From: Shigella phage JK32
Reading direction: 5' to 3' (one strand)
Sequence record: MK962753.1
Length of the DNA: 64,000 bases
Below are positions 3,018 to 46,979 of the stretch, one piece after another. The notes beneath the pieces are model-generated. The model worked only from the letters and a program-made list of their open reading frames with translations. It ran no database searches and was not told the DNA's origin. Position 1 is the stretch's first letter, and each line of letters opens with the position of its first letter. Made by a program: the position numbers and the translations under genes.

Positions 3018-3153
3018 TTACCCCGAACTCGTTTACAATCTGCGCTTTATAGTAACCACCGCGAGATGCCAATAGATAAGCTGGGCTTAGGTATTCGTAT
3101 TCACGGATTTCTACTTGTGCGTTTTCAGTTTCCCAAATCAGTAAAGTCCACAT
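3001..3153 (-). CDS. Small hypothetical protein (about 50 aa)
   Basis: ATG immediately after conserved leader GGAGAATCAAA; track ORF 3001-3228 is probably over-extended. Confidence 0.4.
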   Translation of the reverse strand: MWTLLIWETENAQVEIREYEYLSPAYLLASRGGYYKAQIVNEFGVIEYEF

Positions 3154-3195
3154 ATTTGATTCTCCTGTAAAGTTGTATCTCGTCTTGATGAATAT

Positions 3196-3224
3196 AGTAT
3201 AGGGGATCTCGCGATCCCCGTCAA
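3196..3224 (-). promoter_or_regulatory. Sigma70-type early promoter (TTGACG-17-TATACT) with stem-loop in spacer
   Basis: Reverse strand reads TTGACG gggatcgcgagatcccc TATACT; followed by conserved leader and ATG at 3153. Confidence 0.55.
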
Positions 3225-4309: not shown

Positions 4310-4341
4310 AATGTTATCCTCTCTTTGTTTTCGATGTGAGC

Positions 4342-4369
4342 ATTATACATTAGCTAATCAGGTTGTCAA
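4342..4369 (-). promoter_or_regulatory. Sigma70-type early promoter (TTGACA-16-TATAAT)
   Basis: Reverse strand TTGACA acctgattagctaatg TATAAT upstream of ORF 3776-4309. Confidence 0.6.
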
Positions 4370-4371
4370 CA

Positions 4372-4407
4372 CCTAAAAACGAAAAAGCCGACCCTTTCGG
4401 ATCGGCT
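4372..4407 (-). terminator. Rho-independent terminator after nrdD
   Basis: Reverse strand stem agccgatccgaaagggtcggct followed by T-run. Confidence 0.6.
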
Positions 4408-4412
4408 AAAAA

Positions 4413-6275
4413 TTACATGTGCTTAACGCGGTTTACCATCTCAGAGTGTTTCCCGTGGTTAAATGGACGCAGATCAACAGACCCAAGATATCCACTAACG
4501 CGACGGATAACATTCATCTTTTCCAGATTGTCATTGCCGCAATCAGGACAAACAAAACCAAACTCGGTCGCTCTCATTTCCTTAGTAGATCCGCATACAT
4601 GACATACATCAGAAGGAGTATTAACACCGAAGTAGTGCAATTTATCCATTGCATAATCTACTACGGTTTCAAGCCCTTTCAGGTTGTTTTTCATGTCTGG
4701 GAACTCAACATAAGAGATCATACCACCGGACGCCAGCCAGTGATAATCTTTCTCAAAGTCGATTTTCTCAAACGGTGTGACTTTCCGGTCTACGTCAAGG
4801 TGGAATGAGTTGGTGTACCAGTCTTTATCGGTAGCACCCTTAACAATACCAAATTGCTCTCGGTCCAGTCGATTAAATCGATAGCAAAGGCTTTCGGCTG
4901 GCGTACCGTAAAGACTAAACCCAAGTCCGGTTTCGTCCTTCCATTTTTCAGTATAATGACGCAAGATCTTAAGAATATGTTTACCGTATCGCTGCGCTTC
5001 TTCCGAATCAAACGGATGAACACCAAACAGGACGCTCAATACTTCATGTAAACCAATATATCCAAGCGAGATACTAGCGCGACCATCTTTCAGCACTTCC
5101 AAAATTTCATCGTTTTGATGGATACGGAAAAATGCACCTTCTGTATACAGCACCGGAGCAACATTGGCTTTAGCCCCTTTTAAAGCGTCTACGCGACTCA
5201 TCAGCGCATCAAAGCAAATAGGCATACGATTAGCCAGCTCTTGTTCGAATAGCTCAATTCTGCGCATTACAGACGCTTTACCAGCACGACGCGCGGCAAT
5301 AAGAGCAATACGCGGAAGATTCAGAGTCACAACACCTAAGTTATTACGTCCGTCTAATACTTCTTCGCCTTTCTCATTATGCCACACACCCAGGAAGCTA
5401 CGACAACCCATCGGGCTAACCGGAACACTAGATCCAGTGATACTACGGTTATTCTTCGCAGAGATATAATCAGGGTAAAGACGCTTACTAGAACATTCCA
5501 ATGCAAGTTGCTTAATGTCGTAGTTCGGATCTTCCGGTTTAAGGTTTAATCCTTCTTCTAAGAACATCACCAGCTTAGGAAACACCGGAGTGATACCATC
5601 TTTACCTAAACCTTTAGTTCGAACGTTCAGGATCGCTTTCTGAATCAGTTTTTCTTCCCAGCTAGTACCCATACCAAAGGTTAAAGTCACAAAAGGCGTT
5701 TGACCATTGGTAGAGAACAAAGTGTTGATCTCATATTCCAACGCCTGATATCCGTCTAACGTTTCTTTTTCTGTCTTCTCTTGTGCATAGAGAGTATCAG
5801 CTTTGATTCCGTAGGTTTCGGCATCAGCAAGGTGTTTATGATATGTTTTCTCAACGTATGGCGCTAAAACCTGATCAATGTTTGCTATGGTAGTTCCGCC
5901 ATATTGATGACTTGCCACCTGTGCGATAATTTGAGCGGTTACAGCACATGCAACACCGATTGATTTCGGACTTTCGATTTGTGCACTACCCAATTTAAAA
6001 CCATTCTCTAACATGTCTTTGAGATTAACAAGACAGCAGTTAGTAAACGGCATAGCGGGTGCATAATCCATATCATGATAATGAATATCACCGTCTACAT
6101 GCGCTTTATAGATGTGCTCAGGTAACACGGTTTTAGCAATCTGTTTAGACACAGCGCCAGCAATCAGATCTCGACGTGTCGGGAATGTTCGCGCGTCTTT
6201 GTTCGCGTTCTCTTTGCTTACTTCGTTTTCTTTACCCGTTGCGATCTCTGTAATGTCTTTGATTAGTTTTTCCAT
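4413..6275 (-). CDS. nrdD: Anaerobic ribonucleoside-triphosphate reductase (glycyl radical enzyme), uninterrupted
   Basis: 620 aa; C-terminal Zn-ribbon CPDCG and glycyl radical motif RVSGYLG; close match to recalled T4 NrdD. Confidence 0.95.
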   Translation of the reverse strand: MEKLIKDITEIATGKENEVSKENANKDARTFPTRRDLIAGAVSKQIAKTVLPEHIYKAHVDGDIHYHDMDYAPAMPFTNCCLVNLKDMLENGFKLGSAQIESPKSIGVACAVTAQIIAQVASHQYGGTTIANIDQVLAPYVEKTYHKHLADAETYGIKADTLYAQEKTEKETLDGYQALEYEINTLFSTNGQTPFVTLTFGMGTSWEEKLIQKAILNVRTKGLGKDGITPVFPKLVMFLEEGLNLKPEDPNYDIKQLALECSSKRLYPDYISAKNNRSITGSSVPVSPMGCRSFLGVWHNEKGEEVLDGRNNLGVVTLNLPRIALIAARRAGKASVMRRIELFEQELANRMPICFDALMSRVDALKGAKANVAPVLYTEGAFFRIHQNDEILEVLKDGRASISLGYIGLHEVLSVLFGVHPFDSEEAQRYGKHILKILRHYTEKWKDETGLGFSLYGTPAESLCYRFNRLDREQFGIVKGATDKDWYTNSFHLDVDRKVTPFEKIDFEKDYHWLASGGMISYVEFPDMKNNLKGLETVVDYAMDKLHYFGVNTPSDVCHVCGSTKEMRATEFGFVCPDCGNDNLEKMNVIRRVSGYLGSVDLRPFNHGKHSEMVNRVKHM

Positions 6276-6287
6276 TGTATCACCTAT

Positions 6288-6310
6288 GAAAAAGCGGGAT
6301 TTCTCCCGCT
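6288..6310 (-). terminator. Rho-independent terminator
   Basis: Reverse strand agcgggagaaatcccgct followed by TTTTT. Confidence 0.5.
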
Positions 6311-6319
6311 CGTTGATAG

Positions 6320-6814
6320 TTATTTTACCAGTTCTGCTAATTCTTTTTCCGCCGCTTCCAGTTCAGCTTTCAGTTGTTTAATCTCTTGTCGCTTCTTATT
6401 AGCGGCTTCCTGCTTACTATTTCGGATAACCTGATCTAGATATGAATCCCACTCCTGAATATTTTTGATAATGTAACCGTCAACGTTCAGAACTTTAATA
6501 TTAAGAACTTCTTCCAGCTTACTTAAAGAACGTTGTGTTTCGGGGAAGAAATAGTCATATTCACCTCGGTCAAACCAGTAGCGTATGCCAGCTTTATCTA
6601 AACGACGATGCAATTCATCAAAATCTCTACCATCTTCGACGATGAGTTTGTCTACATCGCCATTACAGTTAACAGAGACTTTGAATCTAATATTATCAAC
6701 CCCACCAAAAACATCAATAAGGATAGTTCCTATCGTGTTATCCGCGCTTCCAGTATCCATAAAAGATTCTAGTTTTTCTTGATTAGTAACGTACCAAACA
6801 TCTTGTTTCCACAT
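6320..6814 (-). CDS. Hypothetical protein with coiled-coil tail, grouped with the GKTYxWK family by architecture
   Basis: ORF track; C-terminal KQLKAELEAAEKELAELVK. Confidence 0.55.
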   Translation of the reverse strand: MWKQDVWYVTNQEKLESFMDTGSADNTIGTILIDVFGGVDNIRFKVSVNCNGDVDKLIVEDGRDFDELHRRLDKAGIRYWFDRGEYDYFFPETQRSLSKLEEVLNIKVLNVDGYIIKNIQEWDSYLDQVIRNSKQEAANKKRQEIKQLKAELEAAEKELAELVK

Positions 6815-6844
6815 AATATAATCCTCTCGTTGTTAAGTGGGAGT

Positions 6845-6872
6845 ATTATAGCATACTCCCTTCGCATGTCAA
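6845..6872 (-). promoter_or_regulatory. Sigma70-type early promoter (TTGACA-16-TATAAT)
   Basis: Reverse strand TTGACA tgcgaagggagtatgc TATAAT; hairpin gggagta/tactccc overlaps -10. Confidence 0.6.
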
Positions 6873-8047
6873 GCACTAACTTTTTTCTTTACTGCTTTCA
6901 CCTTCTGGCGAATTGCTCGAATCTCTTCGATCTCTTTTTCAGTCTCTTTAACAATTTCTTTGCGATTCTGAATATCTGTATCGAGATTATCATCAAGTTT
7001 AGGCAGCATGTCAATCAAGAACTTTTTAAAGTCTTTCAGGTTTCTGATAACAGCACCTTCACCCATTACCGCCACCCCTACACCATCCGGCAGATCGCCA
7101 AACAGTTTAACCAGTTCAGACAGATGATCATGATCTTCTAGTGCTTCTTCCGGTTCAGATGGCAGTTCAACAAAGTTATAACGTTCATCATTGCTGATGA
7201 GGTGATACCAGCAAAGCCCGAATGATTTCGGTGTATATTCTACACCATCAATTTCAACCGAGTCAACACTTCCATAATCATCTACTTTAGTTACCTTAAA
7301 TCCTTGTCCCAGCTTTTGAACAATTTCAACAACATGACTTGATACAGTTTCAGCGGTAAACCAATATGGCAAATTATGCTGATTTGGCTTGTAGCGTTCA
7401 CCTACTTTAAATCTCTGACCAGCCGCTTGCATAGCATGAAATTGTTGTTTCGTGATTTCCGCGAAGTATTCAAATTCGCTACCATCAAACACACAAGCCC
7501 ATTGATCACAAAAACGATCTGCCTTGACGGTTTCACCTTTCGCGGTGATCATGGTAGCTGATCCGTGCAATTCTTCTTCAACTAAAAAGCCATATTCGAC
7601 AAAATCGACAAGTTTCATGGCTTCTTTGTGCTCTGGATCATGCTCTCCCCAGAATCGCTTAAATTCTTGCAAACCTTCCGGGGTAAACGAATAACATTTA
7701 CCTTTTTCAAAGTAAGTCGGCATTGCATCCTCTTTCTTGTTCATCGCTTCGTATGCCTCTTTTGAGATGCGTTTAAAGTATTTGCGCTCATTGTGCATAA
7801 TCATAGTAGACCAATAATAAACGATATCCTCAGCGGAATAAACTACATCTCCAGCTTCAATAGTAATAACATGACCGTGGTCATCTTTTTCTAATACTTT
7901 AAAGCCCTTTTCTACGATTTCAGCAACCCGAATATGACCACGGCGCGAAGCATCGGTCAGAATAATTGAATAGCGAGAAAAGTCTAGAAACTCATCTTTA
8001 CCGCCTTCACGGAATGCATAGTAATGACCTTCAAAGAATTTAGCCAT
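6869..8047 (-). CDS. Hypothetical protein with three tandem repeat domains and a coiled-coil tail
   Basis: Repeats FEGHYYAFREGG, FEKGKCYSFTPEG, FKVGERYKPNQ; KYFKRISKEAYEAM motif shared with 8103-8687. Confidence 0.6.
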   Translation of the reverse strand: MAKFFEGHYYAFREGGKDEFLDFSRYSIILTDASRRGHIRVAEIVEKGFKVLEKDDHGHVITIEAGDVVYSAEDIVYYWSTMIMHNERKYFKRISKEAYEAMNKKEDAMPTYFEKGKCYSFTPEGLQEFKRFWGEHDPEHKEAMKLVDFVEYGFLVEEELHGSATMITAKGETVKADRFCDQWACVFDGSEFEYFAEITKQQFHAMQAAGQRFKVGERYKPNQHNLPYWFTAETVSSHVVEIVQKLGQGFKVTKVDDYGSVDSVEIDGVEYTPKSFGLCWYHLISNDERYNFVELPSEPEEALEDHDHLSELVKLFGDLPDGVGVAVMGEGAVIRNLKDFKKFLIDMLPKLDDNLDTDIQNRKEIVKETEKEIEEIRAIRQKVKAVKKKVSA

Positions 8048-8077
8048 AATATAATCCTCTCGTTGTTAAGTGGGAGT

Positions 8078-8106
8078 ATCTTACTACTCCCGTTTCATCA
8101 TGTCAA
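8078..8106 (-). promoter_or_regulatory. Sigma70-type early promoter (TTGACA-17-TAAGAT)
   Basis: Reverse strand TTGACA tgatgaaacgggagtag TAAGAT; hairpin gggagta/tactccc. Confidence 0.5.
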
Positions 8107-8687
8107 GCGTTAAATGACTTTTGGATCTCTTTCAGTTCAGCTACTTTATCGGCGCTGAATTTAGCGTAGGTATCATGTCGAATAATTTCACTTTCAAGAA
8201 AGGTTTCCAGACGAGATCTATTTTCAATAAGGAACTCTTTCAGGTCTTCCGCGTTCTTGATAAAGATTTTATTGTCGGTAATGTCATCTTCAATCGCAAA
8301 GGAGATAGAGCGAACTTTACCAAACAAGTTAATCAGATCTTCCAGAGATTCTTCTTTCTTAACTGGTTTCATTTCTTCAAACTGCTTTTTAGTGATTCGT
8401 TTAAAGTATTTGCGCTCGCTTGCATCAATCATGATTGACGCGCCCTCATAATCATGAGTTTCTACCAAATACACTTTACCCATAACATTAACCGTCAGAA
8501 CTTTAAAGCCCTTGTGAAGCACACCATACAGGAACTTGTTATGTTGTGGATAGCGTTTAACAAATTCCTCTGCGGACTCAGCATTACGGAAAGTGTAATA
8601 ACGACCTCGTTCAAAAACAGCATCATTTGAAGACTTAGCCGGATACAATTTATACGTTTTCTGTACCATAATATAATCCTCTATCAT
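8103..8687 (-). CDS. Hypothetical protein, repeat family
   Basis: KYFKRITKKQFEEM motif; overlaps upstream ORF by 4 nt. Confidence 0.6.
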   Translation of the reverse strand: MIEDYIMVQKTYKLYPAKSSNDAVFERGRYYTFRNAESAEEFVKRYPQHNKFLYGVLHKGFKVLTVNVMGKVYLVETHDYEGASIMIDASERKYFKRITKKQFEEMKPVKKEESLEDLINLFGKVRSISFAIEDDITDNKIFIKNAEDLKEFLIENRSRLETFLESEIIRHDTYAKFSADKVAELKEIQKSFNA

Positions 8688-8956
8688 TTCACTAATTGAA
8701 CAGCACGAAACAGAATGCGGTCACACGGAAGCAGCATAAATTCCCAACGCGGTTCAAAGTCTTTAGCGGTATATGTTTTCCCATCAACCGAGATTTCACT
8801 TACATAACCAATAGGTGACACTTTAAGAACAGTAAATCCATTCTTGATGACTTCGTAGGTATCTTTCAATCCGTCGTAGTCATCCTCTAGGAAGTCTTTA
8901 CGTGCTTGCTCAGATTTAAAAACATAGGCCACACCGGATTTAAACATCTTACGCAT
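8684..8956 (-). CDS. Hypothetical protein, single repeat-domain member
   Basis: MRKMFKSGVAYVFKSEQARKDF resembles N-terminus of ORF 159-659; start placed after GGAGAATCAA leader. Confidence 0.55.
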   Translation of the reverse strand: MRKMFKSGVAYVFKSEQARKDFLEDDYDGLKDTYEVIKNGFTVLKVSPIGYVSEISVDGKTYTAKDFEPRWEFMLLPCDRILFRAVQLVK

Positions 8957-8987
8957 TGTTGATTCTCCTTCTTGATTAGATGGGAGT

Positions 8988-9016
8988 ATTTTATTACTCC
9001 CATTTCTTATTGTCAA
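8988..9016 (-). promoter_or_regulatory. Sigma70-type early promoter (TTGACA-17-TAAAAT)
   Basis: Reverse strand TTGACA ataagaaatgggagtaa TAAAAT. Confidence 0.5.
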
Positions 9017-9019
9017 CTA

Positions 9020-9493
9020 CTATCTTAATCTTTGTATAAATTGTTTCTTATACTTCTTCGTGATCTCTTCTCTTGTATCCGCGTCGCAGTAATCGAAACC
9101 TTCTGCGTCCATAATAGCAACCATCTCCGCGCGTGTCAAGCGTGAAAATCGTTTTACTTTATCAACAGCATATTGAGGATGTAAATGATTGTTGGTGTAG
9201 TCTCCTTTGATGTAATTAACATAGTTTGTAGCCCAAACAACGAAATCAGCACCTAAAGCACCAACACCAAACCGTTTAAAGTCTCCAGTCAACGATCCTT
9301 CTAGGCGGTTGCAACACGAATGAAGCAATCCCCTTACGCGGCCTTGCCCTTTCCCATCTAGATCGTGGTCGTGGTCAAGATGGTTTTTGCTCATATCCTC
9401 AAAAAGTGGCAATTGACAAAGGGGGCAATTGCCCCCCTGTTTTTCGAATAGTTCTTGTTTGTACTCTTTAGCACTCTTAGCAGTCAGTAACAT
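9020..9493 (-). CDS. 49: Recombination endonuclease VII (Holliday junction resolvase)
   Basis: MLLTAKSAKEYKQ...NHLDHDHDLDG...VRGLLHSCCN matches recalled T4 endo VII; start taken at MLLT after a GGAGGG Shine-Dalgarno. Confidence 0.85.
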   Translation of the reverse strand: MLLTAKSAKEYKQELFEKQGGNCPLCQLPLFEDMSKNHLDHDHDLDGKGQGRVRGLLHSCCNRLEGSLTGDFKRFGVGALGADFVVWATNYVNYIKGDYTNNHLHPQYAVDKVKRFSRLTRAEMVAIMDAEGFDYCDADTREEITKKYKKQFIQRLR

Positions 9494-9517
9494 AAATTCA
9501 CCCTCCAAAGAAGGTAT

Positions 9518-9799
9518 TTAACCATTAATCTTGTTTTTGACTACAAAGGATCGGAACTCATCAAAACCACCGATATAATCACCATTATAGAAAATCTGCG
9601 GCATGGTGGCAATAACTTCTACCCCTGCGCGATCCTGAATGTCGGCAATGATAGAATCAATCTTTACCGGACGACCGTTTTCGTCCACACCATCATTAAC
9701 CGGAATGTAGATGTAAGGGATCTTACGCGCTTCACAAAGGCGCTTTGCATTCTGGCAATACTTACAGTTGTAACCTTCAAAACCAAAAATTTCTACCAT
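9518..9799 (-). CDS. Glutaredoxin (NrdC/NrdH-like)
   Basis: MVEIFGFEGYNCKYCQNAKRL with CxxC; 93 aa; start after GAGGT Shine-Dalgarno. Confidence 0.75.
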   Translation of the reverse strand: MVEIFGFEGYNCKYCQNAKRLCEARKIPYIYIPVNDGVDENGRPVKIDSIIADIQDRAGVEVIATMPQIFYNGDYIGGFDEFRSFVVKNKING

Positions 9800-9807
9800 G
9801 TTATACC

Positions 9808-10620
9808 TCAATCTACGTTAGTTACATAAACTTCTTGTGTATCAGAAGACTTGCCACCTGAACGATCTAGACAATAGGTCTTATTCAACAGGACGCAGTT
9901 TAGATCATTCCGCTTGATAAAGTCAAGAAGATGATCATTTACCTTTCCCTTATGATGTGTGACATTACTGATACCAAACTGAAAACCACGCGCCATAATA
10001 GATTCTACCCACTGATAGAATTTAATCTCTTCCTCGTCACTCCAGAACTTATTATATTCCGCAGAAGTGATAAGGTACGGCGGGTCCAAATAAACGAAAT
10101 CACCTGGCAAGATCTCGATCTCGTCATATCGTCCAGAAGTAAAATTGATTCGACCGTCTTTGTTTTCATACTTAAAATTCAGGACACGCTCTACCGCGTT
10201 TTCGTTAAAAGTCCGGCGACCAAAATTAGCATTAAATTCACCCTTCCGGTTATGTCGGTTAATGTTGCTAAAACTGTGCTGAATCAGAACAAACAGAGAT
10301 AGCGGATCTGGATTCTCGTTATACTTCTTGCGGAATGCCATATAAGAATCTTTATCATCACGAGACAGACCATTCTCGGCAATAATACGCTTGATTGTCG
10401 AAACCGGATCAGGACACTCGTCAATCGCTTTGTAAGCGTCAATTAAGCGGTGATCATAGTCATTAGCCAGCACATCACCTTCAACATACAGAGACACGCT
10501 CAAACCGCCACAAAAGGCATCGACAAAGCGGTTATAGTGCTTAGGGAAATACTTACTGACACCAGGCAATAACTTTTCCTTATTGCCAGTATAGGGAATT
10601 AAACCTAATGCTTTCTTCAT
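9808..10620 (-). CDS. dam: DNA adenine methyltransferase
   Basis: YTGNK, FCGGLSVSL and DPPY motifs; collinear with recalled T4 Dam. Confidence 0.9.
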   Translation of the reverse strand: MKKALGLIPYTGNKEKLLPGVSKYFPKHYNRFVDAFCGGLSVSLYVEGDVLANDYDHRLIDAYKAIDECPDPVSTIKRIIAENGLSRDDKDSYMAFRKKYNENPDPLSLFVLIQHSFSNINRHNRKGEFNANFGRRTFNENAVERVLNFKYENKDGRINFTSGRYDEIEILPGDFVYLDPPYLITSAEYNKFWSDEEEIKFYQWVESIMARGFQFGISNVTHHKGKVNDHLLDFIKRNDLNCVLLNKTYCLDRSGGKSSDTQEVYVTNVD

Positions 10621-11051
10621 TATCCCTTCCTCAAATAAGTTCTTTCGGTTTCTACCAGTTCGAAAAATTCATCCCAATCACACGGAAAGTTGCAGTTTCC
10701 AAAATGGTCTTCGTTATAGAGTTCTTTACCGGATGGCAGCTTAATATCTGTTACAGTATACCAACCGCAACAATCGCAATCACCCTCAGCAACAGAAACC
10801 TTCGTAGGAATTTGCATCATTGCCAGATAGGTCGGTACGTCAGACTGTTCAAAGATCATGTAACCTTCATGGTCAAACGAGACAAAATTGTCATCACCCA
10901 AAAAAGGAATGTAATGGTCATAATCGGTTACAGGTTGACCGTGCAATTCCCACTCTACAATTTTAACATTACCGCTAAACTTGATACCCATAATTTCAAC
11001 AAGAAAATGAGTATCGTCAATGTAAATCTTACTAGGGGTTGGATAAACCAT
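10620..11051 (-). CDS. Hypothetical protein
   Basis: ORF track; Cys cluster CDCCGW and CNFPC. Confidence 0.5.
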   Translation of the reverse strand: MVYPTPSKIYIDDTHFLVEIMGIKFSGNVKIVEWELHGQPVTDYDHYIPFLGDDNFVSFDHEGYMIFEQSDVPTYLAMMQIPTKVSVAEGDCDCCGWYTVTDIKLPSGKELYNEDHFGNCNFPCDWDEFFELVETERTYLRKG

Positions 11052-11061
11052 TATATAATCC

Positions 11062-11358
11062 TCATATATCAGAGAATAGAATCTCTGTTAGCTTCACTGA
11101 CTGCTCTCTGAATGTTAGCGTATACTCGAAAGGAAAGTCAACACCTAATTTCAGAAGAGAATAGCCTACCGCCTCTTTATGCTTATCGGTTAGGGCAATC
11201 CTAACCAATTCCCGTTGAATCTCTTTAGGCGGTGAATGGATAGTAACACGGGTATCATGCAATGTCCAGTCACCATTTCGAATTAAGATTAACGGTTTAT
11301 CATCATTGAAGATCACCGACCCCTTTCCGGTCGGTGAGTGTTTTATACTAATCATCAA
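11062..11358 (-). CDS. Hypothetical protein
   Basis: ORF track, early-strand orientation. Confidence 0.45.
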   Translation of the reverse strand: MMISIKHSPTGKGSVIFNDDKPLILIRNGDWTLHDTRVTIHSPPKEIQRELVRIALTDKHKEAVGYSLLKLGVDFPFEYTLTFREQSVKLTEILFSDI

Positions 11359-11569
11359 ATTCTAAGAAATATTCTGGAACGATATACCCGTTAAAGTCAT
11401 TGCACTTATAAAAATGTGGTGCATTCAATGCTGGATGAGCGTTTGTAAACCGCACGTCAGCCAGAAACAGAACGTAATTAACAGGTCTGATACCGACAGA
11501 ATCAGGATCTAATCCCTTTTCTCTCAGTTCAGCCAGCGTTAAAACTCGTCCAGATCGTAACTTAGCCAT
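11348..11569 (-). CDS. Hypothetical protein
   Basis: ORF track, overlapping start/stop with neighbours. Confidence 0.45.
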   Translation of the reverse strand: MAKLRSGRVLTLAELREKGLDPDSVGIRPVNYVLFLADVRFTNAHPALNAPHFYKCNDFNGYIVPEYFLEFDD

Positions 11570-11855
11570 GATTTACCCCCAATTCATCAAGATTATGTCG
11601 CAGCATTTCAGAGTATTTTTCTACTTCCTTGATCTTAGTGTGGATCTCCACGATCTCATCTTCACTATCAGAAAGTTTAATGGCAATAGGGGTGCTGCTT
11701 TTACCCGCCTTGATCGCTTCTTTCAGTTCAACCAACATGTCCGCGTGTTTCAATAGTAATTCTTCACGTCGAACATAAGCGACGGTCAAAGCCTCATCAG
11801 CGATTTCTAAAGCATTTTCAGCGACACCAACAACCATTTTACGAGTAGACAGCAT
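11562..11855 (-). CDS. Hypothetical protein
   Basis: ORF track. Confidence 0.45.
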   Translation of the reverse strand: MLSTRKMVVGVAENALEIADEALTVAYVRREELLLKHADMLVELKEAIKAGKSSTPIAIKLSDSEDEIVEIHTKIKEVEKYSEMLRHNLDELGVNHG

Positions 11856-11869
11856 AAATTCACCTCACA

Positions 11870-12214
11870 TTATTTCACGTTAACGCCGTCATCAATCCAG
11901 CCGACGCTATTTGGTTTAACAGTTTTACCATAGGATGCATACTTAATCAAGCATGGTTTAACATCATTATCAAATCTTCCTAAACGTACTCCAAAATCAG
12001 GAATATCCATGTATGCGGCTTTATATCCCCATGTGCCATATTCAGAATCAATCTCAACCGGACGGCCTTTAAAAGCATACACTACACCGTGACGGTCAAC
12101 GATAACATAGCAATAGCCAGCCGGAAGATACACAGTTTCGCCGTAAACTTTAACTGGAGTAGCAGAAGAGATAAACATAATATAATCCTCACATCGTTCA
12201 TTTGATGCGGTCAT
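11870..12214 (-). CDS. Hypothetical protein
   Basis: ORF track; own promoter upstream. Confidence 0.5.
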   Translation of the reverse strand: MTASNERCEDYIMFISSATPVKVYGETVYLPAGYCYVIVDRHGVVYAFKGRPVEIDSEYGTWGYKAAYMDIPDFGVRLGRFDNDVKPCLIKYASYGKTVKPNSVGWIDDGVNVK

Positions 12215-12845: not shown

Positions 12846-12887
12846 TTTGATTCTCCTTAAGAAAGTGTGTTTCGTTTTGATGTGTGT

Positions 12888-12916
12888 AGTATAGGGGATC
12901 GGTGATCCCCTGTCAA
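12888..12916 (-). promoter_or_regulatory. Sigma70-type early promoter (TTGACA-17-TATACT) with hairpin in spacer
   Basis: Reverse strand TTGACA ggggatcaccgatcccc TATACT. Confidence 0.55.
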
Positions 12917-14935: not shown

Positions 14936-14964
14936 CTTTGATTCTCCTTAGTTGGTATGTGTGC

Positions 14965-14992
14965 ATTATAGCACTATGATTTTCATTGTCAA
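14965..14992 (-). promoter_or_regulatory. Sigma70-type early promoter (TTGACA-16-TATAAT)
   Basis: Reverse strand TTGACA atgaaaatcatagtgc TATAAT. Confidence 0.6.
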
Positions 14993-16092: not shown

Positions 16093-16133
16093 TTTTGATT
16101 CTCCTAGAAAGTGTATCTCGTTTCGATGGGTGT

Positions 16134-16162
16134 ATTATGCAATAACACCGGATCGCTGTCAA
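16134..16162 (-). promoter_or_regulatory. Sigma70-type early promoter (TTGACA-17-CATAAT)
   Basis: Reverse strand TTGACA gcgatccggtgttattg CATAAT plus conserved leader. Confidence 0.6.
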
Positions 16163-17346: not shown

Positions 17347-17375
17347 TTTGATTCTCCTTTGTTGTCGATGTGTGC

Positions 17376-17404
17376 ATTATGCTATACCCTATTCCGGTTG
17401 TCAA
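17376..17404 (-). promoter_or_regulatory. Sigma70-type early promoter (TTGACA-17-CATAAT)
   Basis: Reverse strand TTGACA accggaatagggtatag CATAAT. Confidence 0.6.
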
Positions 17405-23100: not shown

Positions 23101-23129
23101 ATAATATAGCCCTATCACCAGAAAGTCAA
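23101..23129 (-). promoter_or_regulatory. Sigma70-type promoter (TTGACT-17-TATTAT)
   Basis: Reverse strand TTGACT ttctggtgatagggcta TATTAT upstream of SLT gene. Confidence 0.45.
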
Positions 23130-23151: not shown

Positions 23152-23574
23152 TTATTGGTCCACTTTCAAAACAACAGCCGACATTTTACCCGCCAGTCGT
23201 TTTGGATTCTCTATAATCATTCGACAGCATAGACCGTGATATGGCTTACCGTCTTCAATTAGGTCTACTGTCATCCCGATCCACATGTTACCGTCAGTAA
23301 TTTCTAATCGATTAGGTCGGTCTTCCATTTTCAGGAAGTCGAAGATCTCCGGCAAACGAGTCTCTACCTTATTGAATAGTTCCATTGTCTTATGTTCATC
23401 AATATGACGGTCGGTTAATCTGTCGATCATATGCGGACTAAAGCGAATGAAAATATACTCACCGTAACCATCATTCAAGCACTTTTCTTTGATCTGCGCA
23501 TTGGTTTTGCGCATTTCGGTTTCGAAGAATCTACGCAGCTTACTACGGCGAACGTGTACATTAATTGTTTCCAT
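23152..23574 (-). CDS. regB: RegB endoribonuclease
   Basis: METINVHVRRSKLRRFFETE...RLEITDGNMW...CRMIIENPKRLAGK collinear with recalled T4 RegB; track ORF over-extended to 23646. Confidence 0.8.
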   Translation of the reverse strand: METINVHVRRSKLRRFFETEMRKTNAQIKEKCLNDGYGEYIFIRFSPHMIDRLTDRHIDEHKTMELFNKVETRLPEIFDFLKMEDRPNRLEITDGNMWIGMTVDLIEDGKPYHGLCCRMIIENPKRLAGKMSAVVLKVDQ

Positions 23575-23575
23575 T

Positions 23576-23914
23576 TTATTCTCCTTTCTTAAACAAATTG
23601 CGAAGCCAGTATACAAACGGGATTTCTTTAAACTTGAACTTGTCAATAGTTAATTCTTTAGTAGCAAGATGAATACCATAAGCATCATGTGTCACGATAT
23701 GCCATTTTCTATAGTCCAAATGTGAACAACCGTCTGAATCTAGGTTAATAATAGTTTCTCGCTCACTAGGATTGTTTTTCCACAATTTTGTAATCGGATC
23801 ACACATAATTCGACCTAGCGTACCATGAATAATCTCACAACGGTAAAGTTTTCCGGCAGTGATATAGGCACACCCGTCATAGTCGGTATAAACAAACACT
23901 TCTTTAACACTCAT
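23576..23914 (-). CDS. Hypothetical protein, member of a tandem triplet paralogue family
   Basis: ITAGKLYRCE...DSDGCSHLDYRKWHIV pattern shared with next two ORFs. Confidence 0.5.
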   Translation of the reverse strand: MSVKEVFVYTDYDGCAYITAGKLYRCEIIHGTLGRIMCDPITKLWKNNPSERETIINLDSDGCSHLDYRKWHIVTHDAYGIHLATKELTIDKFKFKEIPFVYWLRNLFKKGE

Positions 23915-23946
23915 TTTTAATACTCCTTTGTTGTGTCGATGGGGGT

Positions 23947-23975
23947 ATATTACTACCCCCGATCATGGGTGTCAA
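23947..23975 (-). promoter_or_regulatory. Sigma70-type early promoter (TTGACA-17-TAATAT)
   Basis: Reverse strand TTGACA cccatgatcgggggtag TAATAT; hairpin gggggta/taccccc. Confidence 0.5.
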
Positions 23976-24236
23976 CTACTTTTTCAAGAATTTTTTAATT
24001 GCGTTCCAAAGACCTTTATTCTCAGGCTGTTTTGGTTCTTCGATCAGTGTCCACGGACGGTCGTCAAGATATGCACAGCTTTTCAGAGAAATAAAAAGTT
24101 TGTATCCTTTATCATCTTTGATGTAACCGTAGGTAGACATTCTTTCATCTGGCGTAAACTTATACAGTTTATTTGGGGTGATGTAAGATCTACTACTATA
24201 AGGTGTCATTACATATTTCATGGTACTAACTCCCAT
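23976..24236 (-). CDS. Hypothetical protein, triplet paralogue
   Basis: ITPNKLYKFTP...GYIKDDKGYKLFISL. Confidence 0.5.
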   Translation of the reverse strand: MGVSTMKYVMTPYSSRSYITPNKLYKFTPDERMSTYGYIKDDKGYKLFISLKSCAYLDDRPWTLIEEPKQPENKGLWNAIKKFLKK

Positions 24237-24412
24237 TTATCACCGCGAAGATGAGAACATCCACCATCAAGAAGGATCGTAATACGAAACCCCGCATCAT
24301 CTTCAATATACCCGATAGTCGGTGGATGTTCGTCGTCTCGTGCCGGGGTAAAATCATACATCTTACCAGGCGTAATATCTTGTCCTTTATTGCTATTGGT
24401 ATAAACTTGCAT
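24218..24412 (-). CDS. Hypothetical protein, triplet paralogue
   Basis: ITPGKMYDFTP...GYIEDDAGFRITILLDGGCSHL. Confidence 0.5.
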   Translation of the reverse strand: MQVYTNSNKGQDITPGKMYDFTPARDDEHPPTIGYIEDDAGFRITILLDGGCSHLRGDKWELVP

Positions 24413-26891: not shown

Positions 26892-27467
26892 TTATTTTGG
26901 ATCTGGGAAATTCAATAGAGCATATTCTCCATAAAATTTCCTAGCTGCATTATCATAAGCGATTGCAGCTTCGATTTCTGTGTCATATTGTCCAAGAACA
27001 TGTCTTTGTAGGTTGACCATTATACTAGCTCTCCATTTCTTACGCAAATCCTTCCTGTTACACTTACTAACACCCTTATACACACTAGAAAACTTTTTAG
27101 ACTTCTTCTTTCTATTATGTTGATTTTGCGCGTCGGTTGCCTCCCTAAGATTTGGAGGATTGTTATTAGCAGGATTACCGTCAATATGATCAATTAATCT
27201 AACTTGCGTCCCATGTTCTAGAAACCAAACAACCCTATGCACGAATAGATGAACTCTAGGAAGACCGTCATCTCTACTATGCCAAAATCTAAGATGACCA
27301 TCTTTATTTGTTCTGACTTTAACTAAATCGCCGTGTTTATATCTACTCCCTAATGGTCGTCCTTTGATAGCTTTACTATCGACTCTATAATATAAGATAC
27401 CCTCTATATGAGCATATCTAAGTTTTATCTCGTTTTGTAGGGATTCATCCCAATATTTAAAGGTCAT
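26892..27467 (-). CDS. HNH homing endonuclease with AP2-type DNA-binding domain
   Basis: IDHIDGNPANNNPPNLREAT...NQHN (HNH); C-terminal YKGVS...WRASI...AAIAYDNAA (AP2-like). Confidence 0.75.
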   Translation of the reverse strand: MTFKYWDESLQNEIKLRYAHIEGILYYRVDSKAIKGRPLGSRYKHGDLVKVRTNKDGHLRFWHSRDDGLPRVHLFVHRVVWFLEHGTQVRLIDHIDGNPANNNPPNLREATDAQNQHNRKKKSKKFSSVYKGVSKCNRKDLRKKWRASIMVNLQRHVLGQYDTEIEAAIAYDNAARKFYGEYALLNFPDPK

Positions 27468-27481
27468 TTTATAATCCTCAC

Positions 27482-29533: not shown

Positions 29534-29786
29534 AGAATGAAATTTTCACAGACACAATTTTACCATAAGTGAAGAATGAATATACATTATCGAGATATTC
29601 AACGTCACCTACAATCACATCAAACTGCGGATCAGCAACCGCCGCAACATATTCTACCAGTTCATCAAGAGAATGCAACTTAATTTCATCAATTCGGCTG
29701 TATTTGGTTGCATCTTTAATTTTAAAACCACGTTCTTTCAGTTTGTCAATCAGAATTTCACGCGGAGTTTCAAACAGTTTGCTCAT
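29466..29786 (-). CDS. Hypothetical protein
   Basis: ORF track. Confidence 0.45.
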   Translation of the reverse strand: MSKLFETPREILIDKLKERGFKIKDATKYSRIDEIKLHSLDELVEYVAAVADPQFDVIVGDVEYLDNVYSFFTYGKIVSVKISFCENVEVLASEPEKPTDNGPSAA

Positions 29787-29807
29787 AATATAATCCTCAC
29801 ATTAAAT

Positions 29808-30720: not shown

Positions 30721-30762
30721 TTTGATACTCCTTAGTAGTTCGTGTTTCGTTTCGATGGGTGT

Positions 30763-30791
30763 ATTATGCTATACACCCTCTCGCGTGTCAA
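30763..30791 (-). promoter_or_regulatory. Sigma70-type early promoter (TTGACA-17-CATAAT)
   Basis: Reverse strand TTGACA cgcgagagggtgtatag CATAAT. Confidence 0.6.
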
Positions 30792-31424: not shown

Positions 31425-31453
31425 TTTGATTCTCCCGTTTCGTTGATGGTTGT

Positions 31454-31482
31454 ATTGTAGGGGAGTTATACTCCCCTGTCAA
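31454..31482 (-). promoter_or_regulatory. Sigma70-type early promoter (TTGACA-17-TACAAT) with hairpin in spacer
   Basis: Reverse strand TTGACA ggggagtataactcccc TACAAT. Confidence 0.5.
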
Positions 31483-31677: not shown

Positions 31678-31723
31678 AATTTGATTCTCCTAGTTAGAAA
31701 GTGTGTTTCGTTTCGATGGGGGT

Positions 31724-31752
31724 ATTATGCTATAGGCGTGATCTGGTGTCAA
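31724..31752 (-). promoter_or_regulatory. Sigma70-type early promoter (TTGACA-17-CATAAT)
   Basis: Reverse strand TTGACA ccagatcacgcctatag CATAAT. Confidence 0.6.
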
Positions 31753-33235: not shown

Positions 33236-33266
33236 TTTGATTCTCCTTTCGTTTGTTTGTGGGGGT

Positions 33267-33295
33267 ATCTTACTACCCCCGTTTCATGTTGTCAA
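33267..33295 (-). promoter_or_regulatory. Sigma70-type early promoter (TTGACA-17-TAAGAT)
   Basis: Reverse strand TTGACA acatgaaacgggggtag TAAGAT; hairpin gggggta/taccccc. Confidence 0.5.
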
Positions 33296-33301
33296 CTATT
33301 T

Positions 33302-33680
33302 TTAAGAATATTTTACTTCGTCTACAATGTCTTTCATGACATTGATTTCCATTCCGGTCAGAACACGTTGGAACATGTGCTGCACATACGCTTTCAGGTA
33401 TTCATTTGATGGCTTACTATCGAAAGTCTTTTTAGTGTAGTAGTCATCACCGAAAGCTACTGTAATTACATTTTCGTCGTCGTTCCAAGCGATATAAGCA
33501 AATTTGCCGTTATCCCAGAAGCGAGCACTAATTGCTACTTTTGTTGAATCGAATCCTACTTCGCTGTGAGATTCAAGAACTACTTGTGTGCCAGTTTCTT
33601 TATGAATGTAGTAGCGGGATACTAAGTCAAAGTTACGGGTGTAGTGACATTCGAATTTATCTTTAAACATCATCATTTTG
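33302..33680 (-). CDS. Hypothetical protein (start at MMMFKDKF after conserved leader)
   Basis: Track ORF 33302-33745 trimmed to ATG following GGAGAATCAAA. Confidence 0.5.
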
Positions 33681-33713
33681 ATTCTCCTAAGTGTGTTTCG
33701 TTTCGATATGTGC

Positions 33714-33742
33714 ATTATGCTATAGTCGTTTATGGTTGTCAA
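33714..33742 (-). promoter_or_regulatory. Sigma70-type early promoter (TTGACA-17-CATAAT)
   Basis: Reverse strand TTGACA accataaacgactatag CATAAT. Confidence 0.6.
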
Positions 33743-46922: not shown

Positions 46923-46950
46923 TTGACAATCTCATTTGGTAAGGTATAAT
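46923..46950 (+). promoter_or_regulatory. Consensus sigma70 promoter (TTGACA-16-TATAAT) inside the late baseplate cluster
   Basis: gTTGACAatctcatttggtaaggTATAATa, 30 nt upstream of ORF 46980. Confidence 0.65.
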
Positions 46951-46979
46951 ACACACATCTAAACAACGGAGGATAAATT

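What the first reader, a model, noticed from the sequence alone, without database searches (positions are those of the whole stretch)
23152..23574. regB coexists with GGAG-containing conserved early leaders
Seen in sequence: the phage encodes RegB, and the repeated early leader carries GGAG in its Shine-Dalgarno (GGAGAATCAAA). Established knowledge: RegB cleaves early mRNAs at GGAG in ribosome-binding sites. Inference: a built-in shut-off for the whole family of cassette-driven early genes.
Basis: partly seen in the sequence, partly recalled or inferred. Interest (0 to 1): 0.25.

Follow-up and report, generated by a model that had tools for sequence, protein, structure and literature searches.

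The report
Phage RegB nuclease and its leaders
This RB49-like coliphage carries the known RegB RNA-cutting enzyme, and the near-identical ribosome-binding sites behind its repeated early promoters look like RegB cutting sites, which extends a known T4 shut-off mechanism and is not a new one.

Summary
Window 23152-23574 (-) encodes a RegB endoribonuclease: Pfam PF10715 E=1.9e-48, and T4 RegB (2hx6) is the only significant sequence and fold match. The window comes from a Krischvirus (RB49-like) phage. GGAGAATCAAA occurs 9 times exactly and 3 more times with one mismatch (about 2 expected). Every copy sits in Shine-Dalgarno position on the early (-) strand. Eleven of the 12 lie behind sigma70-type PeSL promoter cassettes; the twelfth is regB's own site.

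The 11-mer matches 10 of 11 positions of the experimentally defined RegB/S1 target GGAGRAYARAA. Six efficiently cut T4 sites checked here score 10-11. High-scoring sites are concentrated at promoter-proximal cistrons (10/13 versus 1/22, p=1.5e-5). However, position 8 is C where A is strongly preferred, and no cleavage data exist for these leaders. "Whole family" overstates the case: 4 of 17 cassettes and most internal cistrons use a GAGG-type site instead.

It is identical to the known T4 30.7 site, which implies autoregulation as in T4 and RB49. RegB, its RB49 orthologue and PeSL cassettes are all published; only the explicit link between them appears undiscussed. Low-to-moderate interest.

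The parts
23152..23574 (-). regB, a 140-aa RegB endoribonuclease; orthologue of RB49 regB and 100% identical to RegB of phage Brandy
23574..23584 (-). regB's own Shine-Dalgarno / RegB-S1 target GGAGAATAAAA. It scores 11/11 and is the only perfect site in the window. Its last A is the A of the ATG. It overlaps the last codons and stop of the upstream ORF.
   Evidence: It is the same 11-mer as the cleaved T4 30.7 site. RB49 has GGATAATAAAA at this place.
23576..23914 (-). 112-aa ORF (RB49 ORF095c homologue), the first cistron of the two-gene transcription unit that contains regB; its SD 11-mer is GGAGTATTAAA at 23916-23926 (9/11)
23947..23975 (-). PeSL-type early promoter (TTGACA-17-TAATAT) with stem-loop GGGGGTAGTAATATACCCCC over the -10 box; drives ORF095c-like gene plus regB
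   Evidence: The homologous promoter is annotated in GEC-3S.
23101..23129 (-). Next sigma70-like promoter (TTGACT-17-TATTAT), downstream of regB and ahead of vs.1; it marks the end of the regB unit
   Evidence: The homologous promoter is annotated in GEC-3S.
3155..3165 (-). Leader 11-mer GGAGAATCAAA (10/11) behind promoter 3196-3224; 50-aa ORF 3001-3153
8958..8968 (-). Leader 11-mer GGAGAATCAAC (9/11) behind promoter 8988-9016; 90-aa ORF
12846..12856 (-). Leader 11-mer GGAGAATCAAA (10/11) behind promoter 12888-12916; 92-aa ORF
14937..14947 (-). Leader 11-mer GGAGAATCAAA (10/11) behind promoter 14965-14992; 96-aa ORF
16094..16104 (-). Leader 11-mer GGAGAATCAAA (10/11) behind promoter 16134-16162; 73-aa ORF
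17347..17357 (-). Leader 11-mer GGAGAATCAAA (10/11) behind promoter 17376-17404; 69-aa ORF
30721..30731 (-). Leader 11-mer GGAGTATCAAA (9/11) behind promoter 30763-30791; 108-aa ORF
31425..31435 (-). Leader 11-mer GGAGAATCAAA (10/11) behind promoter 31454-31482; 75-aa ORF
31680..31690 (-). Leader 11-mer GGAGAATCAAA (10/11) behind promoter 31724-31752; 61-aa ORF
33236..33246 (-). Leader 11-mer GGAGAATCAAA (10/11) behind promoter 33267-33295; 52-aa ORF
33677..33687 (-). Leader 11-mer GGAGAATCAAA (10/11) behind promoter 33714-33742; 124-aa ORF
46968..46978 (+). Leader 11-mer GGAGGATAAAT (10/11) behind a consensus sigma70 promoter (46923-46950) embedded in the late baseplate gene cluster; 85-aa ORF
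4311..12190 (-). The four exceptions: cassettes whose SD is GAGG-type and not RegB-like, at 4311-4321, 6816-6826, 8049-8059 and 12180-12190 (GAGGATTATAT / GAGGATAACAT)

Best explanation
The window comes from an RB49-like (Krischvirus) T4-type coliphage. Positions 23152-23574 (-) encode its RegB, a small RelE/YoeB-like endoribonuclease. In T4 and RB49, RegB cuts between G and A of GGAG/GGAU in single-stranded 11-nt sites (GGAGRAYARAA), and the A-rich tail of the site is read by host ribosomal protein S1.

Shown here: the gene, its fold, conserved E19/H48/R52, and its synteny with vs.1, vs and tk.

Very likely (inferred from sequence identity to proven sites): RegB cuts its own ribosome-binding site and so limits its own synthesis. 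That site is GGAGAATAAAA, the T4 optimum.

Likely but untested: the stereotyped translation-initiation region GGAGAAUCAAA(A)AUG is at once a strong S1-dependent ribosome-binding site and a RegB/S1 target. It follows about three quarters of the repeated sigma70 early promoter cassettes (PeSLs). On this reading the first cistron of each cassette-driven transcript, mostly a 50-125-aa ORFan, is translated hard immediately after infection. It is then inactivated once RegB accumulates. The 5'-OH fragment would be fed to RNase G/E after phosphorylation by phage PNK (pseT is present in RB49), as in the T4 pathway.

Internal cistrons and a minority of cassettes use a different, non-target site (GAGGAUUAUAUU). 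They would escape direct inactivation.
For: RegB identity:
- Pfam E=1.9e-48; PDB 2hx6 E=6.5e-26.
- AlphaFold plus Foldseek find only T4 RegB.
- E19, H48 and R52 are conserved.
- RB49 annotation and synteny agree.
- RB49 RegB is reported to cleave its own SD in vivo (PMC3014915).

Target definition: an 11-nt single-stranded site, GGAGRAYARAA, with T4 optimum GGAGAAUAAAA (PMC1702504).

Calibration on T4 sequence: the efficiently cut sites motB, motA, regB, 30.7, motB.2 and 55.2 score 10-11/11. Resistant denV and gene 1 score 9 and 8.

In the window:
- regB's own SD is 11/11 and is the only perfect site.
- Nine leaders are GGAGAATCAAA (10/11).
- 14 GGAG sites score >=10/11, against 3.2 expected.
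- Among SD-positioned GGAG sites, >=10/11 occurs in 10/13 promoter-proximal sites against 1/22 others; the one exception is regB itself. Fisher p=1.5e-5.

RB49 whole genome: 22 exact copies, all in SD position and 20 behind a promoter.

Variation among 38 RB49 cassette copies obeys the RegB/S1 rules, except at position 8:
- position 5: A/G/T, never C
- position 6: A in 33/38
- position 7: pyrimidine in 35/38
- positions 9 and 10: A in 32/38 each
- position 11: A in 30/38

The tail carries 1.1-1.2 bits per position, against 0.27-0.37 bits in the leader upstream.

The motif persists in metagenomic relatives whose RegB is only 57-64% identical. Leaders are weakly structured (MFE -1 to -8 kcal/mol; 11-mer mostly unpaired). 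pseT, modB and srd are present in RB49.
Against: - No cleavage data exist for these leaders in anything I could read.
- Position 8 is C in the main motif, whereas A at positions 6, 8 and 11 is the most conserved part of the tail in T4 and in SELEX, and C is 'almost completely excluded' from the tails of cut T4 RNAs.
- Among the ten T4 sites checked here (the full list of 26 cleaved sites, Durand Fig. 3A, could not be read), the only two with C8 are nrdC.8 (moderately cut) and gene 1 (very weakly cut), and both carry further mismatches. The host, and hence S1, is the same E. coli, so a lineage-specific S1 preference cannot be invoked.
- RB49 RegB is only 42% identical to T4 RegB. It lacks H68 (N in the window), one of the 'two histidines' needed for full T4 activity.
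- A second, equally stereotyped site that is not a RegB target (GAGGATTATATTATG, 15 copies with up to 2 mismatches) shows that this phage homogenises ribosome-binding sites for other reasons.
- PeSL crossovers map between the SD/ATG and the -10 box (PMC2839356), so homology there may be kept by recombination.
Confidence: 0.6

Rival explanations
1. Optimised translation start only. GGAGAAUCAAA(A)AUG is conserved because it is a very strong ribosome-binding site for burst expression of early genes. It combines (U)AAGGAG pairing to 16S rRNA, a 7-8-nt A-rich unstructured spacer and an S1-friendly leader. RegB cuts these C8 leaders poorly or not at all. In this phage RegB would act mainly on its own mRNA and a few other sites.
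For: - C at position 8 departs from one of the most conserved positions of the RegB/S1 site.
- T4 gene 1, which has C8, is almost resistant.
- Many leaders extend the SD to AAGGAG or UAAGGAG, with optimal 7-9-nt spacing.
- A second stereotyped, non-RegB site (GAGGATTATATTATG) is conserved just as strongly.
- regB's own site carries A8, not C8, in all 11 Krischvirus sequences examined, i.e. the window plus ten relatives. This suggests the A/C difference matters.
Against: - If escape from RegB were selected, dropping GGAG (as the GAGG class does) would be simpler.
- The tail follows the RegB/S1 rules at 6 of 7 positions, including the unusual pyrimidine at position 7.
- T4 sites with one tail mismatch (regB with C10, motA with U6, motB with U5) are efficiently cut.
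- nrdC.8 has C8 plus two further mismatches and is still moderately cut.
Confidence: 0.27
2. Recombination homology. The leader, including the 11-mer, is kept identical mainly because PeSL cassettes are substrates for homologous recombination and gene conversion that shuffle ORFans. Resemblance to a RegB site is then a by-product of descent from one ancestral cassette.
For: - PeSL mini-circle junctions map between the SD/ATG and the -10 box (PMC2839356).
- Whole leaders, not just the 11-mer, recur in distant relatives, e.g. CATAGAAACGAAACACACTT...GGAGAATCAAA in L032.
- Two cassettes (6872 and 8106) share an identical 25 nt before the ATG.
Against: - Within the cassettes the 7-nt tail is much more conserved (1.1-1.2 bits) than the adjoining leader (0.27-0.37 bits) or the first codons (0.3-0.4 bits).
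- An 11-nt block is too short to serve as recombination homology by itself.
- Leader length varies from 22 to 39 nt while the 11-mer and its distance to the ATG stay fixed.
Confidence: 0.1
3. Chance co-occurrence. regB and GGAG-type Shine-Dalgarno sequences coexist simply because GGAG is a common SD, with no specific relationship.
For: GGAG is a generic SD core. 35 ORFs in the window have a GGAG in SD position.
Against: - Shuffles give about 2 matches against 12 observed.
- Exact copies: 9 observed against 0.04 expected.
- High RegB/S1 scores are restricted to promoter-proximal sites, p=1.5e-5.
- Late-gene and internal SDs are mostly GAGG, AAGG or AGGA.
Confidence: 0.03

Closest known systems
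RegB endoribonuclease of phage RB49 (and of T4; PDB 2hx6)
   Same: Orthologous gene in the same place (ORF095c - regB - vs.1 - vs - tk.4 ... tk). About 95% DNA identity to RB49 over this region, 42% protein identity to T4 RegB, the same fold, and E19/H48/R52 conserved. Its own SD is a RegB site.
   Different: The window's regB SD is GGAGAATAAAA. RB49 and most sampled Krischviruses have GGATAATAAAA; the G variant is shared with Brandy and SSG23. H68 of T4 is N in the window (N, R or T across the clade).
T4 RegB/S1 target sites (GGAGRAYARAA; T4 optimum GGAGAAUAAAA; Durand et al. 2006)
   Same: An 11-nt, unstructured, intergenic site in the translation-initiation region of early transcripts. It has GGAG at the 5' end, A at positions 6, 9, 10 and 11, and a pyrimidine at position 7.
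   Different: Position 8 is C in the dominant Krischvirus leader. The sites are almost identical copies (22 exact in RB49), whereas T4 has a degenerate family of 26. They sit at a fixed place in a repeated promoter cassette.
PeSL cassettes (promoter-early stem-loops) of RB49/phi1 (Arbiol et al. 2010; Comeau et al. 2014)
   Same: A sigma70 consensus promoter, a G+C stem-loop between or over the -35/-10 boxes, then SD and ATG, flanking small ORFans in hyperplastic regions.
   Different: The two PeSL papers treat the SD only as an alignment anchor. Neither contains the terms RegB or GGAG. The reading of the SD block as a RegB/S1 site is added here.
RelE/YoeB-type ribosome-associated mRNA endonuclease toxins
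   Same: According to the literature RegB shares their fold and acts on mRNA at the ribosome (PMC3014915). A weak Foldseek hit to a toxin-antitoxin toxin (5ceg_B, E=0.21) is the next match after RegB.
   Different: There is no significant sequence or fold score to them here. No antitoxin gene is evident. Specificity is for GGAG plus an S1-read tail, not for A-site codons.

Membership tests
RegB endoribonuclease (Pfam PF10715) | Sequence match to the family profile above the curated threshold | tested here: met
   164.7 bits against a cut-off of 27, E=1.9e-48, covering profile positions 4-148 of 148.
RegB endoribonuclease (Pfam PF10715) | Similarity to the solved T4 RegB structure (sequence and fold) | tested here: met
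   phmmer against 2hx6_A gives E=6.5e-26. The AlphaFold model (pLDDT 89) against 2hx6 gives Foldseek E=1.6e-8, prob 1.00, TM 0.69/0.64; it is the only hit with E<=0.001.
RegB endoribonuclease (Pfam PF10715) | Catalytic and functional residues of T4 RegB: E19, H48, R52, H68. R52L and H48A are known inactivating mutants; 'two histidines' are required for full activity. | tested here: inconclusive
   E19, H48 and R52 are conserved in every homologue that covers those positions. H68 is N in the window and N, R or T in the whole RB49-like clade. RB49 RegB is nevertheless reported active in vivo (PMC3014915).
RegB endoribonuclease (Pfam PF10715) | Conserved genomic neighbourhood (regB next to vs.1 and vs, near tk) in an early transcription unit | tested here: met
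   RB49 and T4 annotations. The window ORFs downstream are vs.1-like (SLT domain) and upstream is a sigma70 promoter.
RegB endoribonuclease (Pfam PF10715) | Own ribosome-binding site is a GGAG/GGAU RegB site (autoregulation) | tested here: met
   The window has GGAGAATAAAA, 11/11. 23 of 26 IMG/VR regB loci have GGAG or GGAT plus an A-rich tail. Cleavage itself was not tested.
RegB endoribonuclease (Pfam PF10715) | S1-stimulated cleavage between G and A of GGAG in single-stranded RNA | not testable with these tools
   Needs enzyme assays or in vivo RNA end mapping.
RegB/S1 target site (11 nt, GGAGRAYARAA) | Invariant GGA at the 5' end and G (rarely U) at position 4 | tested here: met
   All 12 leader copies, and the + strand copy at 46968, start with GGAG.
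RegB/S1 target site (11 nt, GGAGRAYARAA) | A-rich 7-nt tail: no C at positions 5, 6 and 9; A at 6, 10 and 11; pyrimidine at 7 | tested here: met
   GGAGAATCAAA fits all of these. Among 38 RB49 copies: position 5 is never C, position 6 is A in 33, position 7 is a pyrimidine in 35, positions 9 and 10 are A in 32 each, and position 11 is A in 30.
RegB/S1 target site (11 nt, GGAGRAYARAA) | A at position 8 (one of the three most conserved tail positions) | tested here: not met
   C in 9 of the 12 motif matches in the window, in 11 of the 15 automatically called GGAG-type cassettes in the window, and in 29/38 RB49 copies. It is met only in regB's own site and a few variants.
RegB/S1 target site (11 nt, GGAGRAYARAA) | Site is single-stranded | tested here: inconclusive
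   Predicted leaders are weakly folded (MFE -1.3 to -7.9 kcal/mol over 60-80 nt). Mean unpaired probability of the 11-mer is 0.32-0.87. Prediction only.
RegB/S1 target site (11 nt, GGAGRAYARAA) | Located in an intergenic translation-initiation region of an early transcript | tested here: met
   The sites lie 22-39 nt downstream of predicted starts of sigma70 promoters and 6-9 nt before the ATG. The promoters are classed as early by Arbiol 2010.
RegB/S1 target site (11 nt, GGAGRAYARAA) | regB-dependent cleavage in vivo | not testable with these tools
   No data found. Piesiniene 2004, which tested RB49 RegB, is not in the held library.
PeSL cassette (Arbiol 2010) | Sigma70-consensus early promoter | tested here: met
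   17 cassettes of the form TTGAC[AG]-N16/17-TAnAAT-like.
PeSL cassette (Arbiol 2010) | G+C stem-loop between or over the -35/-10 boxes | tested here: met
   Visible directly in the sequence. Examples: GGGGATCaccGATCCCC (12916), GGGGATCgcgaGATCCCC (3224), GGGGAGTataACTCCCC (31482), GGGGGtagtaatataCCCCC (23975).
PeSL cassette (Arbiol 2010) | SD and ATG of a downstream, usually small, ORFan at the 3' end | tested here: met
   ORFs of 50-124 aa behind the GGAG-type cassettes. The RB49 homologues are annotated as hypothetical proteins.

The most novel reading that the evidence does not exclude
The PeSL cassette is a complete mobile expression module. Besides a terminator, a consensus early promoter and a strong ribosome-binding site, it carries a built-in RegB/S1 cleavage site. 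Any ORFan shuffled in by PeSL recombination would then automatically receive 'burst then shut-off' kinetics. On this reading the C8 variant of the site (GGAGAAUCAAA) is cut more slowly than regB's own perfect A8 site. RegB would throttle itself first and clear the ORFan messages afterwards.
Probability: 0.35. Interest if true: 0.45.

Novelty: new member of a known kind. Interest (0 to 1): 0.27.

Why it matters
If the leaders are cut, about 20-35 early transcripts per Krischvirus genome would share one nearly invariant RegB site. That would be a much cleaner natural regulon than T4's 26 degenerate sites. It would be a convenient system for dissecting how S1 reads the 7-nt tail, for example A8 against C8. 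It would also explain how horizontally shuffled ORFans can be expressed strongly yet transiently. In practical terms it bears on annotating early genes and on predicting expression timing in therapeutic RB49-like phages. If the leaders are not cut, the finding reduces to a correctly annotated regB plus a stereotyped ribosome-binding site.

Tried and rejected
- Rfam scan and tRNA scan of the whole window found nothing. The leader is not a known RNA family.
- Piesiniene 2004 (RB49 RegB activity), Saida 2003 (the two histidines) and Desplats 2002 (RB49 genome) are not in the held library. RB49 RegB activity is therefore cited second-hand from PMC3014915 and PMC1702504. Figure 3A of Durand 2006, which lists the RB49 sites and the full set of 26 cleaved T4 sites, is not readable.
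- A pattern scan of IMG/VR for the regB SD polymorphism found only one Krischvirus contig. I sampled GenBank relatives one by one instead.
It was rerun without that sequence.
- I considered a gene on the + strand across regB. Only 40-54-aa ORFs without ribosome-binding sites are present, so this was rejected.
- I considered that other T4-type clades might share the stereotyped 11-mer. They do not; their GGAG SDs near regB are diverse.
- I considered depletion of RegB-like sites inside sense-strand coding sequence. The count is 0 observed against about 1.3 expected, which is not informative.
- I considered a control group of PeSL-bearing phages that lack regB (for example the KVP40/nt-1 group). 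This was not run, because the absence of regB there could not be established cheaply.
Full report
**What the window is.** The region around the finding is 95-96% identical to 58 Krischvirus (RB49-like, T4-type) coliphage genomes and identical to none. Genes run on the minus strand up to about 37.6 kb (early region) and on the plus strand beyond that (late structural genes). GC skew and the RB49 annotation both show this.

**Check of the observation: regB.** The ORF at 23152..23574 (-), 140 aa, matches the finding's coordinates exactly.
- It matches Pfam REGB_T4 at E=1.9e-48.
- It matches the T4 RegB chain 2hx6 at E=6.5e-26.
- An AlphaFold model (pLDDT 89, pTM 0.83) has T4 RegB as its only significant PDB fold match (E=1.6e-8, TM 0.69/0.64).
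- In an alignment with T4 RegB and seven metagenomic homologues, E19, H48 and R52 are conserved wherever those positions are covered. H68 is replaced (N, R or T) throughout the RB49-like clade.
- The protein is 100% identical to RegB of phage Brandy. regB homologues occur in 1136 phage records.
- Neighbours are as in RB49 and T4: vs.1, vs, tk.4 and tk lie downstream.

**Check of the observation: the leader motif.** GGAGAATCAAA with up to 1 mismatch occurs 12 times, all on the minus strand. Shuffles give 1.98 +/- 1.31. Nine copies are exact, against 0.04 expected. Each copy is in Shine-Dalgarno position, 6-9 nt before an ATG. The finding's coordinates, however, cover only regB and not the leaders.

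**Anatomy of the cassettes.** I located 17 cassettes of the form A/T-rich tract, TTGAC[AG], N16/17 (often a perfect G+C hairpin), TAnAAT, a 22-39-nt C/A-rich leader, SD, then ATG.
- These are the PeSLs (promoter-early stem-loops) described for RB49 and phi1. That work demonstrated promoter and terminator activity and recombination between cassettes (PMC2839356; PMC4122927).
- Thirteen of the 17 have a GGAG-type SD: nine GGAGAATCAAA, plus one each of GGAGAATCAAC, GGAGTATCAAA, GGAGTATTAAA and GGAGGATAAAT.
- Four have GAGAGGATTATATT or GAGAGGATAACATT.
- The GGAG-type cassettes precede small ORFans of 50-124 aa.
- Internal cistrons mostly use a second stereotyped site, GAGGATTATATTATG: 15 copies with up to 2 mismatches, against 0.27 expected.

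**Comparison with the experimentally defined RegB target.** Durand et al. 2006 showed the following.
- With S1, the T4 RegB site is 11 nt of single-stranded RNA with consensus GGAGRAYARAA and T4 optimum GGAGAAUAAAA.
- RegB itself recognises GGA, and S1 reads the tail.
- A at positions 6, 8 and 11 is the most conserved part of the tail.
- C is almost excluded from the tails of cut T4 RNAs.

The Krischvirus leader GGAGAAUCAAA is exactly 11 nt of conserved sequence and fits 10 of 11 positions. The single misfit is C at position 8.

| Behaviour | Gene | Site | Score |
|---|---|---|---|
| Efficiently cut | motB | GGAGUAUAAAA | 10 |
| Efficiently cut | motA | GGAGAUUAGAA | 10 |
| Efficiently cut | regB | GGAGAAUAACA | 10 |
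| Efficiently cut | 30.7 | GGAGAAUAAAA | 11 |
| Efficiently cut | motB.2 and 55.2 | GGAUAAUAAAA | 10 (tail 7/7) |
| Moderately cut | nrdC.8 | GGAGGAACACA | 8 |
| Moderately cut | 47.1 | GGAGUUUGAUA | 7 |
| Resistant / very weak | denV | GGAGAACACUA | 9 |
| Resistant / very weak | gene 1 | GGAGAAACACA | 8 |

A single tail mismatch is therefore compatible with efficient cleavage. Among these ten sites, the only two with C8 (nrdC.8 and gene 1) both carry two further mismatches, so none of them isolates the effect of C8. The full list of 26 cleaved T4 sites (Durand Fig. 3A) could not be read.

**Specificity within the window.**
- Of 204 GGAG occurrences on both strands, 14 score >=10/11, against 3.2 expected from composition.
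- Eleven of those 14 are sense-strand SD sites.
- Among SD-positioned GGAG sites, 10 of 13 promoter-proximal sites score >=10, against 1 of 22 others (Fisher p=1.5e-5).
- The single exception is regB's own site.
- The only high-scoring SD in the late, plus-strand half (46968, GGAGGATAAAT) also lies behind a consensus sigma70 promoter.
- Late and internal genes mostly use GAGG, AAGG or AGGA.

**regB's own site.** The 11 nt ending at the regB ATG are GGAGAATAAAA.
- This is the only 11/11 site in the window. It is the same 11-mer as the T4 30.7 site used as a standard RegB substrate.
- RB49 has GGATAATAAAA there, identical to the two cleaved T4 GGAU sites. That agrees with the review statement that RB49's regB SD is GGAU and is cut in vivo.
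- Of ten relatives examined (eight sampled GenBank genomes, RB49 and an ECD7-like IMG/VR contig), two (Brandy, SSG23) share the window's G and eight have T.
- The tail AATAAAA is invariant in all of them. The polymorphic position is the one position where RegB tolerates G or U.
- In 23 of 26 diverse regB loci from IMG/VR, the regB SD is GGAG or GGAT with an A-rich tail.
- Autoregulation is thus strongly predicted.

**Wider evidence on the leader.**
- In the complete RB49 genome there are 22 exact copies of GGAGAATCAAA. All are in SD position and on the early strand, and 20 lie behind a TTGACA promoter; 0.11 copies are expected.
- Of 57 automatically detected promoter-SD-ORF cassettes in RB49, 38 are GGAG-type.
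- Position by position, their variation follows the RegB/S1 rules except at position 8 (C 29, A 4, T 4, G 1): position 5 is A/G/T and never C, position 6 is A in 33/38, position 7 is a pyrimidine in 35/38, positions 9 and 10 are A in 32/38 each, and position 11 is A in 30/38.
- The tail carries 1.1-1.2 bits per position, against 0.27-0.37 in the 30 nt upstream and 0.3-0.4 in the first codons.
- In metagenomic relatives whose RegB is only 57-64% identical, PeSL-like cassettes persist. They again carry GGAGAATCAAA, GGAGAATAAAA, GGAGTATAAAA or GGAGTATCAAA.
- Other T4-type clades do not show a stereotyped 11-mer.
- Predicted leaders are weakly structured.
- RB49 encodes pseT (PNK), which in T4 converts RegB's 5'-OH ends into RNase G/E substrates.

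**Most likely mechanism.**
- Shown: the phage encodes a bona fide RegB.
- Very likely: RegB limits its own synthesis by cutting its perfect SD site.
- Likely (about 0.6): the GGAGAAUCAAA block is a dual-purpose element. It is a strong, S1-assisted ribosome-binding site that RegB/S1 also recognises. The first cistron of most cassette-driven early transcripts would then be inactivated soon after infection, and decay of the rest would proceed through PNK and RNase G/E as in T4.
- Inferred, not shown: cleavage at these leaders, its efficiency given C8, and propagation of decay to downstream cistrons.

**Rivals.**
1. The block is only an optimised translation start, and C8 makes it a poor RegB substrate (0.27).
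2. It is kept by PeSL recombination or gene conversion (0.1). The much higher conservation of the 11-mer than of its flanks, and the variable leader length, argue against this.
3. Coincidence (0.03).

These are not fully exclusive. Because S1 reads the same tail for translation and for RegB activation, good early ribosome-binding sites are intrinsically good RegB sites.

**Novelty.** RegB, its distribution, RB49 RegB activity, the 11-nt target and PeSLs are all published. The two PeSL papers do not contain the terms RegB or GGAG, and only two held papers mention RegB and RB49 together. The explicit link between the PeSL SD block and the RegB/S1 site therefore seems not to have been drawn. It is a direct extension of the T4 paradigm, not a new kind of system. 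I classify it as a new member of a known kind, with interest about 0.27.

Noticed in passing
window, 15 sites, e.g. 6812-6826, 8045-8059, 8667-8681, 12176-12190, 29784-29798 (-): A second stereotyped translation-initiation region, GAGGATTATATTATG: 5 exact copies and 15 with up to 2 mismatches, against 0.27 expected. It is used mainly by internal cistrons and by 4 of the 17 promoter cassettes. It is not RegB-like. Why a phage keeps two near-invariant classes of ribosome-binding site is unexplained.
   Followed up: partly
window 23576-23914, 23976-24236, 24218-24412 (-): Three small ORFs immediately upstream of regB are tandem paralogues sharing an ITPxKxY...GYIxDD...C.HL...W motif (BLASTP E=3e-13 and 7e-6). 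They have no Pfam hit and unknown function. The last one is co-transcribed with regB.
   Followed up: partly
window 23581 (position 4 of the regB SD 11-mer): G/T polymorphism among Krischviruses. The window, Brandy and SSG23 have GGAG. RB49, Phi1, JSE, FL20, MIZ4, KFS-EC, GEC-3S and an ECD7-like contig have GGAT. The change also moves the stop codon of the upstream ORF (112 against 111 aa). The A-rich tail is invariant.
   Followed up: yes
window regB, residue 68 of T4 numbering (codon near 23374): T4 RegB H68, one of the 'two histidines' needed for full activity, is Asn in the window and Asn, Arg or Thr in all RB49-like homologues. E19, H48 and R52 are conserved.
   Followed up: partly
window 46923-46978 (+): A perfect sigma70 promoter (TTGACA-16-TATAAT) with a PeSL-like leader and GGAGGATAAAT sits inside the late baseplate gene cluster, between gp8 and gp9 homologues. 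It drives an 85-aa ORF and forms an early-type cassette on the late strand.
   Followed up: partly
window leaders, e.g. 33688-33712, 12857-12886, 31691-31722 (-); L032 11511-11590: The C/A-rich leader upstream of the 11-mer (CATCGAAACGAAACACACTTTCT...) recurs in many cassettes and even in a distant metagenomic relative whose RegB is 57% identical. It might be a translational enhancer or S1-binding platform. This was not analysed further.
   Followed up: no
window 6816-6872 and 8049-8106 (-): Two cassettes share an identical 25 nt before the ATG (cacttaacaacgagaggattatatt) and similar GGGAGT...ACTCCC hairpins. This is consistent with recent duplication or conversion of a cassette.
   Followed up: no
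window 27467-27477 (-): GGATTATAAAA in SD position before a 191-aa ORF is the only GGAU site in the window, apart from the regB locus variants, whose tail matches 6/7. It is a possible additional RegB (GGAU-type) site.
   Followed up: no
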